DNA of 64,000 nucleotides from Stylophora pistillata (lineage: Eukaryota): positions 528,240-592,239 of the forward strand of contig NW_019217844.1 of NCBI RefSeq assembly GCF_002571385.2, written 5' to 3'. The position numbers are program-made. Below, piece by piece: positions 23,001 to 56,000 of the stretch (position 1 is its first letter; each line of letters starts with the position of its first letter).

Positions 23001-26000
23001 TATATATATTCTTTCTTTTTTATGATGTTTCCTCAGATTTCCCTGAAATCCTGAGGTCAAGAAACCGTGATCTGAATACTACCCACAATGCCTTTCGGGG
23101 CCATTTCGTGCACTTCACTGCGTTTCCCGCAACCTTTCTGCAGACAGCTATATATATACTTGAGGAAAAATGAAAAAAAGAAAGAACTAACCCTACTGAA
23201 CGACCAAAACGAGGTAAACTCGACAAGAGGGAATTCTAAGTGACCTGCAGAAATCAATGTTTACAATGTAACGAAATAATTTGGATATATCAACAAAGTT
23301 GAAATGGTAAATTGGCCACCGTAACGATTACAAAAGCTGACGTTTCGAGCGTTAGCCCTTCGTCGGAGCGAATAGAGGAATTGTGGGTTTTGTGTGCTTT
23401 TAAAGGCAGAAAATGGAGCTACGTTATTGGTGGGAACATGGCAACGAGAAAAACANNNNNNNNNNNNNNNNNNNNNTGTTTTTCTCGTTGCCATGTTCCC
23501 ACCAATAACGTAGCTCCATTTTCTGCCTTTAAAAGCACACACAACCCACAATTCCTCTATTCGCTCCGACGAAGGGCTAACGCTCGAAACGTCAGCTTTT
23601 GTAATCGTTACGGTGGCCAATTTACCATTTCAACTTTGTTGATATATCCAAATTATTTCGTTACTCCCACCGACGCAGCCCCAAACAGTTTCTTTCGAAA
23701 CTATCAGCCTTTTTACAATGTACCGTTCCACTGTTTCGTCCCTCTCATATTCACTCGCACGTCGGTATTTATTCCCTGTTCATTAGTCCTTTTGTCCAAA
23801 TTTATTTGTTTCACATGCACCTTTCTGCAAACGGCTGTATATATAGTTGGCAAAGATATGTGTATTATACAGCTCTCAAATTAAATTCAATTGAATTCCC
23901 AAACATCAAGTATTTGTTGATAATTAGAAATACTCTGGTTAGGTGACATACGCCTGACGCAGTTGATTGCGAAAATTAAGGAAAGATAGGGATCTGGAGC
24001 GATTCTTCACAATGTTCAGTGGTTGCCAGTTTCTGTTATAAACAAAGTCAGGAACTTCAAGTCAAAAATAGCTAGTTTATTTTCAATTGAGGCTCGTATA
24101 AAATATACTTTATCAAAAAATATTTATTCATACAAAAATAACAAAAAATATATCAATTTCATCATTTTTTGTTCTTTTTGCTTTAAATTTTTTTTTTTTT
24201 AACATAAACAGGCATTCATTATAGTTTTCACGGACATAATTTTGGTAATCATCTTTCTGTAATTCTATCTTTTAAATACTTCTAGCTGTTCATTTTTTCA
24301 TCGATATATTGTATTGGTGTACCTTTCATGGTAAAACCTACCGTGGGCTGGCTGGAGTAAAAACTTCTTAGGCCCACCTACAAATCACGCGCGCGCCAAT
24401 ACACTAGTACTCAACCTCTCTCACGTTAATGTTCGCCCAATGGCAACATTGCGCTCCAGCGACCAGTTAATAATATGCGCCCATCTGTGACACACACGAA
24501 CGTGCGCGACGGGAAATGACTATTATAGTCTACCTTTTACCCACGTTCCTTGTTCTATTGTAAAAAAAATTTCAGCAGGCATGAACGGCCTAGTTAGTGT
24601 CTAGGGATGATAGCGCACAGTTCTGTTCGGGAACGGAAACAGAGGGTCGTGTAAGCTCTGTATCACTGCTCGAAAATACGTGGAAATTGCTCAGTATCAA
24701 CGAGTAGTCTCCGTTCTGGAGAATATACCAACAAAGCGTGCGATCGAGGAGCTGGGTTGTCAATCAGTCGGTGTATCTTCGCCCCTTAAAAATAGACCAG
24801 CAGTCTCGGTGAAGCGATGTTTTATTGAGAATGGGAGCCATTCATTCGTTTCCTGTCGAGCAATGAAAAGAAACAAAGTTTGCCATCTTATACAATTTCC
24901 AAAAGTGGAGAATTTCGCGCCGTTAACTGAGTAACGTGAAATGGTTTTACTGCGAATTCTGTCTAAGCAGAGGCCTAAGAGAGGCCCAAGAGAGGTCTTA
25001 GCTGCTACTTTAAATAGCACAAATGAACTACGATTCAGATTCTTATAAAGTCACCCACCTCCTCTCTTTGTCGTTGCCATAGTGACAAAGCTCCTTCTTC
25101 GTTGAAATTACACGTACAGCTGAGGACCAGTGGATCTTGCTCTCTGTGATAAACAAACAGGCCATTAAATGATTCAGAAAATTTTCCTTAATGGTTTTTT
25201 ACGATCAGAAACCATACACGCCCTTTTACTCGATAGCGCACTTGGACTAACACCAGGCGTGGTTCTTTTCTTGGGACTTGAGGATGCCGGGGGAAAATCT
25301 AGCTTTAGTTTTCTGTGGTGCGGGGGAGCGGAGGATATCAAAACATTTCGTGAAAACCCACTACACCCTAACTTCAGTGTGCATATTCTCCATGCAGTTC
25401 TCTATACATTTCGTACAGTATTGGTAAGGAGAATTTGTTTAACAATCAAGGGCTGCGCCTTTTTAGTTGGTGATCATTTCCTCTATTCTCATGACCTTAA
25501 TGTGTGGATTCAGGGGTGATATTGTAAGGAGAAATTAGGTGCTGGTTATTCTTAGAGGTTAAAGGGCTTGTGAGAGGTTACTCTTTACGCCCTAAGACCA
25601 TTATGCATATTCTCCATACCGTTCTTTGTACATTTCCTAAGGTGTTGACAAGGAGAATTTGTTTAACAATCATGAGCCTTTTTAGTTGGTGATCATTTCC
25701 TGTATTCTCATGACCTTAATGTTTGATTCAGGGGGGGATATTGTAAGGAGAAATTAGATGCTGTAGACACTGTTTCAGTTTCTCTCATCCAAGTGGCAGT
25801 TGGTAGAACACCGAGTAAGAAAGACAATGCTACGGAAGTAAAAATGAGGTCGTACACAGAGCGATATTTTGGAAGCCAAAGCGAGGGCAAAGATGCCAAA
25901 GCAGACCAACCAAGAGCGACTTTGACACGATTAGTGCTAAGAGGGGCATTGGAAGTATCCTATGAAATTCCAGTGCAACATTGGAAATAACTGAATAACA

Positions 26001-53000: not shown

Positions 53001-56000
53001 GATCACATATCTTGTTTTTGAGTCCTTCGTTCACTCAGTGCGCGATACGGAATTGCTCCTTAAGAAAATCATTTGAAACTTCTTTGAACATAAAGAAAGT
53101 CATACGTGTAGAATTATCCTTATAGGGACCTAACGCAGTCAGGACGGCAACGCCACGGAATTAAAAAATTAATTTTTACTTTTAGTTAAAATTTCGAAAA
53201 TGACTGCATGTGTTTACCGTCTCATAGGGCGCCAGACCTCAAACTCAACATAACGCATGAAAGTAGCGTTGAGGGCCAAATGGAAATTAAAATGATTTGC
53301 CGTCTGGTTTTGGTTCGCAGACGACGCAAATTTTGGTGATTTCACGTTGTTGTTTTGCAAAGGGCGGCTAAGAAATGAACAAAGTTTTAAAACGCACGTG
53401 CTGGGCTATTGTTCTTCCAATTAGATCTTTTGTTTTTTGACGTTCCCGTTGCCGTCGCCGTCGTGGTTGCGTAAGGTCCCTAATAACTCCAAATACGAGG
53501 GAGATTCAAGGTAACAAAGTCAACTGATAAGAGAAGGGCAAAAACGTGGTTTCAGTGATTAAAATGTGTGCGAAACAAGCAGGACTCGGTGAATTTTACA
53601 TTTACCTTTTCCACACTTCGCTTCTGCAGCTCCTAGGGATACCTTCTCTCAATAATGCTTTCATTCCTTGCTGTTGACATAAAATAAGGGTGAGTTCAAG
53701 ACTGGCGCCAAACTGAAAATTGTCTCCACTTACCCTTTTTACATCTTCAAACATCTTTCAATAAGTTAAAACGAAAAAAAAAAAATCAAAATATCTCGTG
53801 TTACCCAGAATAAAGACGCTGACTGTAGTTTGCTATATACTTCTTTTATGTTTTAAATTCGAACTCTTTATTTCATCGAGTCTCGCAATTATGAAGTCCT
53901 AACTAGTGTTCTTCTGATGCCACATACTCTATTTTTCGAATATTCTTTCACAATACGAAAAAACTGCTAAACGTAGTAACAATGGAGCTGCTTTAAGCTC
54001 TCTAGATAACAGTGATGTCACTTCCACCTCAACCATTCTACAACTTGGAACAATTGGCCTCTTGTTAGCTTCACGTACCTCGTTAAAAACCACATCTTTG
54101 CTCTCTTGTTGCCTGGCTTTCATATACTGTGACCACAAACGGGCATGACCATCTCTGTTCTAAGGAAATTAAATAGTTATTGAACACGTCTAAGGCCTGC
54201 AAAAGGGAGTTTATATTTTCAAGAACAATGCAAACTTTCCACAAGATAACGTGGGCACTAAACTGAACAAAAGTAGCCAGAAAGGTTAGTTCATTTTACC
54301 TGATAAAAGCTCGAGTAATGTTGTTTAAGCTCGCGACAGAGGAAGTGAAACAGTTCACTTTCACTCTCTCTGGCTCCACGGATAAAACCATAACTGTCTC
54401 TAAAACTACTTGAAGCTGGTGTGCAACTACAAAAGAGAAGATGGTCGTTCAATAAAGAGCCCCTAAACCATGAAATCCCTGACACAACTTTCCCCCCCGA
54501 TCGGTAATCTTTATCAAAGCAAGCTAGATTCTTCTCTGTCGTTATTCATTGAAATATTAACCAGCAATATGCGGGACACTTGTCACATATGAACGTACTT
54601 TATGGCCTTGCTCATTAACAAGTACCTTTTACTGTTGTGGCGATATTAGTAAAGCATCTGAAAACTAAGCCACTGAATCTGTTAGCTTTCCAATCCTTAA
54701 TCAAGATAGTTTCAATTTTTTCATTCTCTTAGGCTTGTGACAAAAAGTTTAACATCCTTATTCAGAAAAAAATATTTCTTGCTAGGTTTCGAATAGTCCT
54801 GGTAACTTGGCTCAATTTCCGCCGTTCTCTAGAGTCTAAGTGTTCAATCCTCGAAAGAGAATCGCGGGTTCATTTCCCGAACAGCGGTCGGCAGTCGAGT
54901 CTGCTTCTCTTACTTTCTTCATAAAATAAGTCATTTCCTCAACTCTCGTTTCGCATTTCGTATTTGTTCAGGCAAAGAAGATTGACAACTGGTTTATTAA
55001 AAAAAATTCATTCTTTCAGATTTCCTCGCATCCTAGGGTTTCCTTGATCATCACTTCTTAAAAAGAGAGTTCAGTTTCTACTCCTCCCTAACATCAAAAC
55101 GACTCCGAGAAATGGTCAGATCACAAGAAAATTAGCCAACAATATTTGAATATTTAATAATGACATGTCCTTTCAAATATTGGGGGGTAGCACAAATCAG
55201 TCGATTGACGATACGTTGACGAGGACAGAAGTTTTAAATGGCAGAAAAAAAGCAAAACGAATGTCTTATCGAGAGATAATAAGCTGAAATTGGAGCTATG
55301 TAGGACACAAAGCAACAGTACGACAAAAGAATAAAAAAAAAAAAAAAAAAATGAGGAAGTTAAACAAAGGTGGCACTCTTAATTTTGCACCATTCATGCA
55401 TTCATGTCAAAAGATGACTTGGCAGTGGGCTATATAACCCAGCTGTCAATATGTAATTAGCATCAGTTGTCATCACCCGCCTTAAATTTCAGATAAGATT
55501 AATGATGTGAAGATCTTCAATTTCTCGAAAACAAAAAGTTCCTCTTTTTTTCGCCATAAATTCCAGCCTGCCAACGCAGTAAAAACTTTTATGACAAAGG
55601 CGTAAATTTCTCATCGGGCAAGTCACACATTTCCTCCTCTCCACCCCCCTTTCATAAGCGCTGTTCCTGGCATTTTCTGCACCTGCTGGCACATTTAGCA
55701 ATAATAGCAATAAAACTGGATAAGAGGAAGGGGGGAAAGGAACACACTTATTGGCACGTGCGACAAATTGATTAAAATACTTATACGTTATTTTTTATTT
55801 TTTTTTTTTTCCTTTTTTTTTTTGAGATCATTTTATGAAATGCGAGATTCAAGTTCGTTTAAAAGATAAAAATAAGTCCTTAGCTCCTTAGTGGAGTCCT
55901 TTGAAAAGATATCATGGTTAATGTGATATCAGATGAAGAATTTTGACATGCAAAATTTCCAATAGAAACTGATCGTTCAGTTTGTACAGGTAATCGGATA

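What the first reader, a model, noticed from the sequence alone, without database searches (positions are those of the whole stretch)
24888..54415. Hidden ~24-exon gene with an unusual architecture: TBC1D2-like Rab-GAP fused to a JIP3/ARHGEF10-type propeller
Seen: two dozen small exons splice in frame into a TBC domain followed by beta-strand repeats. Established: LPxLxAHL...VTFNWF and the DxYGF/LLRxGxP start are TBC1D2/2B-like. VxxALADGxxAV, VWCGxxN, GVWxSxR and LWVGxGNG are characteristic of the C-terminal WD40-like domain of JIP3/JIP4 and ARHGEF10/17. Vertebrate TBC1D2 ends shortly after the TBC domain, and TBC1D31 has WD40 before the TBC. I do not know a characterised TBC-then-JIP3-propeller protein. 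Inference: a lineage-restricted Rab-GAP scaffold for endolysosomal trafficking, of possible relevance to symbiosome biology if this is a coral (TBC1D2 proteins act on Rab7).
[Added by the scan's program, not by the reader: the finding's places include an assembly gap (unread letters, written N; its length is only estimated) at 26953 to 27921. Whether the letters on both sides are continuous or in frame is not known: test that first.]
Basis: partly seen in the sequence, partly recalled or inferred. Interest (0 to 1): 0.7.

Follow-up and report, generated by a model that had tools for sequence, protein, structure and literature searches.

The report
Annotated coral Rab-GAP gene with propeller
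The many-exon gene is real, but it is an already annotated coral gene from an old, animal-wide and still unstudied family of Rab-switch inactivators that carry a propeller-shaped tail.

Summary
On the minus strand, 25 small exons (63917 to 24760) chain in phase to a stop codon and encode a TBC Rab-GAP domain followed by a seven-bladed beta-propeller.

The gene is not hidden. All 876 in-frame exon residues are identical to RefSeq XP_022783831.1 of Stylophora pistillata (1213 aa), and that model abuts at all 24 junctions, including the one across the N gap. The window holds residues 329-1213. The N-terminal 328 residues lie beyond the window end.

A 3.3-kb contig from a near-identical relative encodes residues 536-1213 without a break. 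It must come from spliced RNA, so both halves sit on one mRNA there.

The architecture is not lineage-restricted. PH-TBC-propeller proteins occur from a sponge through cnidarians, molluscs, chelicerates, myriapods, flatworms, nematodes (including C. elegans NP_510336.3) and echinoderms to amphioxus.

The TBC half is sister to vertebrate TBC1D2A/B. The propeller's nearest sequence relatives are JIP3/4, then ARHGEF10/17. The nearest solved fold is the LRRK2 WD40 domain.

Both catalytic fingers are intact. A link to symbiosomes has no support. I found no paper on any member.

The parts
63847..63917 (-). Exon 0 in the window; residues 329-351 of XP_022783831.1 (pre-TBC region). The upstream intron runs off the window.
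   Evidence: tblastn; acceptor and donor; exact match
54427..63846 (-). Intron of 9420 nt. Holds a 510-aa open frame on the opposite strand (60934-62463).
54300..54426 (-). Exon 1 (residues 353-394), carries DSYGF
54079..54159 (-). Exon 2 (395-421)
53606..53670 (-). Exon 3 (422-442); start of the TBC domain, RxxxW motif (RSEVW)
52793..52832 (-). Exon 4 (444-456), TBC
52589..52636 (-). Exon 5 (457-472), TBC
51298..51405 (-). Exon 6 (473-508), TBC; IxxDxxR motif with the arginine finger (IKCDLLR)
   Evidence: (TBC profile 45-66)
50070..50135 (-). Exon 7 (509-530), TBC; ends with the YxQ glutamine finger (YLQ)
   Evidence: (19.6 bits, profile 71-91)
48433..48491 (-). Exon 8 (531-549), TBC
47868..47943 (-). 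Exon 9 (551-575), TBC
46785..46916 (-). Exon 10 (576-619), TBC; passes Pfam's TBC cut-off on its own
   Evidence: 35.7 bits against cut-off 25.2, profile 140-182
45765..45809 (-). Exon 11 (620-634), TBC
45371..45505 (-). Exon 12 (635-679), end of the TBC domain
44838..44960 (-). Exon 13 (680-720), helical linker between TBC and propeller
42132..42234 (-). Exon 14 (721-754); end of the linker and first beta-strand of propeller blade 1
   Evidence: (maps to P0001 64-97; strand 88-94)
32669..42131 (-). Intron of 9463 nt that splits blade 1 of the propeller. No Pfam-recognisable open frame inside; scattered N at 41013-41036.
32568..32668 (-). Exon 15 (756-788), rest of blade 1
32168..32265 (-). 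Exon 16 (789-820), blade 2
31731..31839 (-). Exon 17 (822-857), blades 2-3
30845..30978 (-). Exon 18 (858-901), blades 3-4
   Evidence: WD40_2 20.5 bits, below the 22.5 cut-off
28650..28751 (-). Exon 19 (903-935), blades 4-5
28416..28509 (-). Exon 20 (937-967), blade 5
28178..28331 (-). Exon 21 (968-1018); three strands of blade 6 and the start of the acidic insert; GC donor
   Evidence: Beta-prop_LRRK2 18.6 bits, below cut-off
26672..28177 (-). Intron of 1506 nt as assembled, containing the assembly gap 26953-27921. Its true length and content are unknown.
26263..26671 (-). Exon 22 (1020-1154); disordered acidic insert, then the fourth strand of blade 6 and the start of blade 7
25059..25143 (-). 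Exon 23 (1156-1183), blade 7
24760..24852 (-). Exon 24 (1184-1213) with stop codon 24762-24760; end of blade 7

Best explanation
The region is the 3' three quarters (residues 329-1213 of 1213) of the gene that RefSeq annotates in Stylophora pistillata as uncharacterized protein LOC111324518. It belongs to an ancient, animal-wide family with the architecture PH domain, coiled-coil region, TBC Rab-GAP domain, helical linker and seven-bladed beta-propeller.

Shown here:
- The exon structure and its identity to the RefSeq model.
- An intact TBC domain with the RxxxW, IxxDxxR and YxQ motifs.
- A confidently modelled seven-bladed propeller. Its sixth blade is interrupted by a disordered acidic insert of about 110 residues. 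The ring is completed by the conserved C-terminal tail, which is encoded on the far side of the assembly gap.
- Sequence kinship of the propeller with those of JIP3/4, ARHGEF10/17 and LRRK2.

Inferred:
- The protein is an active Rab GTPase-activating protein that uses the dual arginine/glutamine finger mechanism.
- By kinship with TBC1D2/Armus (a Rab7 GAP) and C. elegans TBC-2 (RAB-5, less so RAB-7), its most likely substrates are endosomal Rabs of the Rab5/Rab7 type.
- The N-terminal PH and coiled-coil part, which lies outside this window, brings it to phosphoinositide-marked endosomal membranes.
- The propeller is a docking surface that places or regulates the GAP. The partner is unknown. 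Self-association or cytoskeletal binding, as reported for the LRRK2 WD40 domain, are only analogies that I recall.
For: Gene structure: an ortholog maps collinearly from 63920 to 24769 on the minus strand. Junctions are canonical and phase-matched, and 25 exons chain to a stop. 25 of 25 exons are exact substrings of XP_022783831.1, with 0 or 1 residue between neighbours exactly where split codons are predicted.

One mRNA: P0002 (678 aa on a 3323-nt contig) is 670/678 identical to residues 536-1213 in one unbroken block. That stretch spans 23.7 kb of this window, so the contig must derive from spliced RNA, and it crosses both the 9.5-kb intron and the gap junction. Full-length relatives of 1091-1241 aa sit on contigs of 3.5-6.3 kb.

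Domains: XP_022783831.1 scores RabGAP-TBC 183.3 bits, Beta-prop_LRRK2 53.9 and WD40_2 46.1. Exon 46916-46785 alone scores 35.7 bits for TBC.

Catalysis: the arginine and glutamine fingers are present in the window's exons and in 44 of the 44 family rows that have a residue at those columns; the other 8 of 52 rows are fragments.

Fold: the model of the natural propeller fragment P0001 has pLDDT above 90 over residues 90-300 and 28 strands. The top PDB folds are the LRRK2 and LRRK1 WD40 domains, E 1.8e-14 to 2e-13. The family profile hits the LRRK2 WD40 by sequence at E 3e-22 and the TBC1D2 PH domain at 4e-12.

Function of relatives: passages of PMC5739090 and PMC6176412.
Against: No experiment on any member was found, so GAP activity, substrate and the propeller's partner are all inference.

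In the TBC tree the family is sister to TBC1D2A/B, not inside it, so substrate preference may differ.

Pfam finds no PH domain in the coral protein at E <= 0.001. Only Porites gave a weak hit, E 0.0028. So the membrane-targeting step is weaker for corals than for other phyla, and that part lies outside the window anyway.

Transcript evidence comes from near-identical and related sequences, not demonstrably from this genome.

The gap-bearing intron needs a non-canonical GC donor.
Confidence: 0.88

Rival explanations
1. The TBC half and the propeller half are two neighbouring genes, wrongly merged across the 9.5-kb intron.
For: The intron is long (9463 nt). Older GenBank models for the same species are partial: PFX29742.1 covers residues 1-530 and PFX29715.1 covers 352-1213. 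The Pocillopora model P0015 has a TBC domain only.
Against: The split in the older models is not at this intron; PFX29715.1 spans it. The transcript-like contig P0002 crosses the junction unbroken. The intron falls between the first and second strand of propeller blade 1, not between domains. Both halves sit on one protein in 37 of the 81 long relatives scanned and in named species of at least eight phyla. No Pfam-recognisable open frame lies in the intron (0 of 5 tested).
Confidence: 0.02
2. The gene is the direct ortholog of vertebrate TBC1D2A/B, and vertebrates simply lost the propeller tail. It is not a separate old paralogue.
For: Databases name many members 'TBC1 domain family member 2A/2B-like'. 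TBC1D2B/2A are the nearest propeller-less relatives. The PH domain is closest to the TBC1D2 PH domain among solved structures. Support for the cnidarian-plus-bilaterian fusion clade is only moderate (82/90), and the sponge fusion protein is unresolved at the base.
Against: Vertebrate TBC1D2A/B group at 99/99 with a short PH-TBC protein of the sponge Oscarella pearsei, apart from the fusion clade that includes the chordate Branchiostoma (bilaterian fusions 97/95). Another Oscarella species has the fusion form, so both forms exist within one sponge genus.
Confidence: 0.2
3. The protein is a catalytically silent scaffold whose TBC domain only binds Rabs.
For: Some TBC classes lack one or both fingers (passage of PMC3655817). 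No activity data exist for this family.
Against: The arginine and glutamine fingers, and the Asp/Tyr/Trp motif residues, are kept in the window and in 43-44 of 44 family rows that have a residue at those columns.
Confidence: 0.07

Closest known systems
TBC1D2 family (mammalian Armus/TBC1D2A and TBC1D2B; C. elegans TBC-2)
   Same: N-terminal PH domain, coiled-coil region and a TBC domain with both catalytic fingers. These are the nearest propeller-less relatives of the TBC half (35-36% identity). The nearest solved PH domain is that of TBC1D2.
   Different: The published definition ends with the TBC domain (passage of PMC5739090). This protein continues for about 560 residues into a propeller. 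In the TBC tree it is a sister lineage, not nested within TBC1D2A/B.
JIP3/JIP4 (MAPK8IP3/SPAG9) C-terminal propeller, Pfam WD40_2 PF19056
   Same: Nearest sequence relatives of the propeller outside its own family: best E 6e-18, and 21 of the 81 long hits scanned are JIP-type. The Pfam WD40_2 match is above the cut-off.
   Different: No RH1 or leucine-zipper II domains. WD40_2 scores are 36-59 bits in the nine coral proteins, against 96-165 bits in the JIP-type proteins.
ARHGEF10 / ARHGEF10L / ARHGEF17 (TEM4) C-terminal propeller
   Same: Same Pfam family; predicted seven-bladed propeller at the C-terminus of a small-GTPase regulator (passage of PMC3404065).
   Different: A RhoGEF DH-PH cassette takes the place of the TBC domain. 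More distant than JIP3/4 (best E about 1e-11; 3 of 81 scanned).
LRRK2 / LRRK1 WD40 domain, Pfam Beta-prop_LRRK2 PF23748
   Same: Nearest solved fold (E 1.8e-14, 17-21% identity over about 280 columns). Family-profile hit at E 3e-22. Pfam match above the cut-off.
   Different: No LRR, Roc-COR or kinase domains. None of the 81 long hits scanned has such an architecture. A single-sequence search of PDB sequences does not reach LRRK2.

Membership tests
TBC / RabGAP domain (PF00566) | Profile match above Pfam's curated cut-off | tested here: met
   Exon 46916-46785 alone scores 35.7 bits against 25.2. The identical RefSeq protein scores 183.3 bits.
TBC / RabGAP domain (PF00566) | Dual catalytic fingers: Arg in IxxDxxR and Gln in YxQ (motif names recalled; mechanism in a passage of PMC6176412) | tested here: met
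   IKCDLLR in exon 51405-51298 and YLQ at the end of exon 50135-50070. R and Q are present in 44 of 44 family rows that have a residue there.
TBC / RabGAP domain (PF00566) | Stimulates GTP hydrolysis on a Rab | not testable with these tools
   Needs a biochemical assay.
TBC1D2 family as defined in PMC5739090 (PH, coiled coil, C-terminal TBC) | N-terminal PH domain | tested here: inconclusive
   Encoded outside the window. No Pfam PH hit at E <= 0.001 in XP_022783831.1; weak in Porites, E 0.0028; clear in 16 of 38 relatives and in C. elegans. The family profile hits the TBC1D2 PH domain, 2dhk, at 4e-12.
TBC1D2 family as defined in PMC5739090 (PH, coiled coil, C-terminal TBC) | TBC domain at the C-terminus | tested here: not met
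   The TBC domain ends near residue 652 of 1213 and is followed by a linker and the propeller.
TBC1D2 family as defined in PMC5739090 (PH, coiled coil, C-terminal TBC) | TBC domain groups inside the TBC1D2A/B clade | tested here: not met
   Vertebrate TBC1D2A/B plus two short PH-TBC proteins form a 99/99 clade that excludes the cnidarian-plus-bilaterian fusion clade (82/90). 40 rows, 324 columns.
WD40_2 propeller of JIP3/4 and ARHGEF10/17 (PF19056) | Profile match above Pfam's curated cut-off | tested here: met
   46.1 bits against 22.5 in XP_022783831.1; 9 of 9 coral proteins pass. The best single window exon reaches only 20.5 bits.
WD40_2 propeller of JIP3/4 and ARHGEF10/17 (PF19056) | Seven-bladed propeller fold | tested here: met
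   28 strands in seven groups of four in the P0001 model, core pLDDT above 90. This is a prediction, not a solved structure.
JIP3/4 proteins | RH1 and JIP leucine-zipper II domains | tested here: not met
   Absent from all coral proteins scanned; present in the JIP-type hits.
ARHGEF10/17 proteins | DH (RhoGEF) and PH_19 cassette | tested here: not met
   Absent; present in P0131, P0138 and P0142.
LRRK/Roco proteins | Roc-COR GTPase and kinase domains before the WD40 domain | tested here: not met
   Only the propeller matches.

The most novel reading that the evidence does not exclude
Animals ancestrally had two TBC1D2-type Rab GAPs. One, kept from sponges to amphioxus and in C. elegans but not seen in any vertebrate or insect among the members named here, carries a propeller of the same lineage as those of LRRK1/2 and JIP3/4. 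LRRK2 phosphorylates Rabs, and JIP3/4 read LRRK2-phosphorylated Rabs on lysosomes (abstract of PMC12393467). On this reading the propeller is a shared docking module of an old endolysosomal Rab-control network, and this unstudied GAP is its missing 'off' arm in invertebrates. Corals and sea anemones could use it on phagosome-derived compartments, symbiosomes included.
Probability: 0.15. Interest if true: 0.55.

Novelty: already known. Interest (0 to 1): 0.27.

Why it matters

There is a modest biological point. A Rab GAP family with a LRRK/JIP-type propeller is conserved across most animal phyla sampled here, has a C. elegans member open to genetics, and appears to have no published study. That makes it a cheap target for anyone working on Rab5/Rab7 conversion or on the function of this propeller lineage.

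It gives no specific handle on coral symbiosis.

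Tried and rejected
- ESM Atlas search with the propeller half: only generic WD40 clusters at 0.86-0.88, below the tool's own trust level.
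- Rfam scan of the window: 0 matches.
- Single-sequence search of P0001 against PDB sequences: nothing better than E 0.09. The profile search was needed.
- Exon-by-exon Pfam: 14 of the 21 exons scanned gave no hit, because they are too short. Four exons under 20 aa could not be scanned.
- Literature. Searches found nothing on this architecture. One search (TBC1D2 + propeller) gave 27 papers, 15 listed. I read passages of one, and there the propeller belongs to another protein and the TBC1D2 matches are TBC1D22/23/13. Searches gave background only. Passages of PMC8055011 were irrelevant. Accession and locus-name searches gave 0 papers. The first TBC-2 paper, PMC2893991, is not held.
- I could not learn the C. 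elegans gene name for NP_510336.3, so I cannot exclude that it has been studied under a tbc-N name.
- I considered a full-length fold and a complex prediction, but ran neither. The tools return no coordinates from which to read a domain interface, and I claim no binding.
All work on the window was exon by exon.

Full report
**Observation**

The candidate gene lies on the minus strand. An open stretch holding one propeller-like exon (window 30727-30990) found 9 proteins at E <= 0.001 among 18 candidates. Eight of them carry both a TBC domain (PF00566) and PF19056, and the ninth is a propeller-only fragment. Pfam on these nine gave RabGAP-TBC in 8 of 9, and both Beta-prop_LRRK2 and WD40_2 in 9 of 9.

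Mapping two of them back onto the window gave a collinear series of matches from 63920 down to 24769.

I fixed splice sites by three tests: GT/GC...AG dinucleotides, reading-frame phase, and the residue count against the ortholog. The result is 25 exons, with 23 GT-AG introns and one GC-AG intron. They total 2658 nt (885 codons plus stop), with no internal stop and a consistent phase chain.

Two limits are off. One more exon lies at 63917-63847, with its upstream intron running off the window. The coding end is 24760, not 24888.

**The joined step was left out**

I did not build or search the spliced coding sequence or protein, and I did not translate the nine split codons.

Scanned one at a time, exon 46916-46785 alone passes Pfam's TBC cut-off (35.7 bits). 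Two further exons hit the same model at rising profile positions (45-66, 71-91, then 140-182). Two propeller exons hit WD40_2 and Beta-prop_LRRK2 below their cut-offs. Fourteen of the 21 exons scanned gave nothing, and four were too short to scan.

**The gene is already annotated**

Each exon's in-frame translation is an exact substring of XP_022783831.1, 'uncharacterized protein LOC111324518' of Stylophora pistillata (1213 aa). That is 25 of 25 exons and 876 of 876 residues.

Neighbouring exons are separated in that protein by one residue exactly where my model predicts a split codon (9 junctions) and by none elsewhere (15 junctions). So the RefSeq model and mine are the same. The window holds residues 329-1213.

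Two older GenBank models of the same species cover residues 1-530 and 352-1213.

**The assembly gap**

The N run at 26953-27921 sits inside the intron between 28178 and 26671. The donor is GC in a good context (AAG|GCGAGT), with phase 1. The acceptor supplies the two missing bases. The RefSeq protein has one residue between the flanking exons.

The fold model adds an independent argument that both sides belong together. The exons beyond the gap encode the fourth strand of blade 6 and all of blade 7, without which the propeller would not close.

What lies in the gap is unknown, and an alternative exon there cannot be excluded.

**One mRNA**

P0002 is a 678-aa protein from a contig of 3323 nt. 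It aligns as one unbroken block, 670 of 678 identical, to residues 536-1213. In the window that stretch is spread over 23.7 kb and 17 exons, so the contig must come from spliced RNA. It crosses both the 9.5-kb intron and the gap junction.

Full-length relatives likewise sit on short contigs: 1241 aa on 4091 nt, 1213 aa on 4518 nt, 1201 aa on 4.8-6.3 kb, and Hydractinia 1091 aa on about 3.6 kb. This is evidence from relatives, not from this genome's own RNA.

The 9463-nt intron falls between the first and second strand of blade 1 rather than between domains. None of the five open frames I tested in it has a Pfam match.

**Spread of the architecture**

An exhaustive HMMER search with the natural propeller-only fragment P0001 found 337 proteins at E <= 0.001, 135 at <= 1e-10 and 33 at <= 1e-30. 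I scanned 81 of the 150 listed, choosing the long ones and leaving out 69, most of them short fragments.
- 37 carry a TBC domain, 6 of them only its last 33-42 residues at the start of a truncated model.
- 21 are JIP3/4-type.
- 3 are RhoGEF-type.
- 20 show a propeller only.
- None has LRRK-type domains.

A PH domain was found in 16 of the first 38.

Named members with TBC plus propeller come from these groups:
- Sponge: Oscarella lobularis.
- Stony corals: Oculina, Porites, Montipora, Acropora, Orbicella, Stylophora.
- Other cnidarians: Nematostella, Actinia, Rhopilema, Hydractinia.
- Molluscs, a brachiopod, an annelid and a nemertean.
- Flatworms and flukes.
- Chelicerates and myriapods.
- Nematodes, including C. 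elegans NP_510336.3 (PH 15-110, TBC 455-670, WD40_2 838-1013).
- Echinoderms, a hemichordate and Branchiostoma.

No vertebrate or insect is among them. All six vertebrate hits are TBC1D2B/2A of 689-943 aa without a propeller. This absence rests on the limited set of names I could look up and is not a census.

**Relations of the two halves**

For the TBC region, 55 proteins reached E <= 1e-10. Of these, 31 have a precomputed propeller family. The best propeller-less hits outside nematodes and one partial coral model are a sponge protein, an unnamed protein, and vertebrate TBC1D2B/2A at 35-36% identity. Fungal TBC proteins follow.

A maximum-likelihood tree of the TBC region (40 rows, 324 columns, rooted on three fungal rows) gave these groupings:
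- Vertebrate TBC1D2A/B with the short PH-TBC protein of Oscarella pearsei and an unnamed one, at 99/99.
- Cnidarian plus bilaterian fusion proteins together at 82/90 (bilaterians 97/95, including Branchiostoma).
- The Oscarella lobularis fusion protein unresolved at the base.

This favours two old paralogues, but it is not decisive.

For the propeller, the order of sequence relatives outside the family is JIP3/4 (best E 6e-18), then ARHGEF10/17 (about 1e-11). LRRK2 is reached only by the family profile (E 3e-22) and by fold (E 1.8e-14, TM to target 0.65 for 6dlo). No JIP or ARHGEF10/17 propeller was among the listed structure or sequence matches in the PDB, so that comparison could not be made.

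**Structure**

The AlphaFold2 model of P0001, built with a 52-row alignment, has mean pLDDT 74.4 and pTM 0.67. Residues 90-300 are above 90. A stretch of about 110 residues (358-465) is below 50, and the tail returns to 81-95. There are 28 strands, which makes seven four-stranded blades.

**How it likely works**

Shown here: an intact TBC domain with the arginine and glutamine fingers in the window, and in 44 of 44 family rows that have residues at those columns.

From established knowledge, read as passages:
- TBC domains supply both fingers to the Rab active site, and Armus/TBC1D2A is a Rab7 GAP regulated by Rac1, LC3 and LRRK1 (PMC6176412).
- TBC-2 acts on RAB-5 and less on RAB-7, and the family's PH domains bind PI(3)P and PI(4)P (PMC5739090).

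Inference: this protein switches off an endosomal Rab, and the propeller docks it to a partner that is still unknown.

The locus is an existing RefSeq model, and the architecture is visible in public domain annotations of many species. So the finding is already known as an annotation.

I found no paper on any member. The searches were made, and I read passages of six papers only. Supplements were closed. The C. elegans gene name stayed unknown to me.

Nothing here supports a special tie to symbiosis.

Noticed in passing
window 60934-62463, + strand (inside the first 9.4-kb intron of the TBC gene, opposite strand): An uninterrupted 510-aa open frame. The ESM Atlas holds it from residue 12 on, and its nearest clusters are 'proline-rich transmembrane protein 3/4' (PF25987; score 0.99, 241 of 256 shared features, 24 of 30 hits). 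The local Pfam copy gave no hit at E <= 0.01. Probably a single-exon gene nested in the intron.
   Followed up: partly
window 3455-8727, + strand: Exons of a Src-type tyrosine kinase: SH3 and SH2 in one open frame (3455-4348), and kinase-domain pieces at 5191-5454 and 8422-8727. The N run at 6160-6966 lies inside this gene.
   Followed up: no
window 14711-18655, - strand: Exons of a Ro60/TROVE ribonucleoprotein gene: TROVE at 17765-18655 and 16427-16795; the Ro60 vWA domain at 15582-15848 and 14711-15016.
   Followed up: no
window 20900-21502, + strand: A 201-aa open frame with a Bcl-2 family domain (E 1.5e-25).
   Followed up: no
window 9821-11551, + strand: A 577-aa proline-rich open frame in a stretch of raised G+C (0.428 in 10001-12000). 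It has no Pfam match and is unrelated to the 510-aa frame.
   Followed up: partly
window 41013-41036: Scattered single and short N runs inside the 9.5-kb intron. Left untouched.
   Followed up: no
proteins P0272 and P0273 (older GenBank models of the same species): The two older models overlap in residues 352-530 of the RefSeq protein and are 100% identical there. Both sit on a contig of 983101 nt. Whether they are overlapping predictions or a duplicated stretch in the assembly was not resolved.
   Followed up: partly
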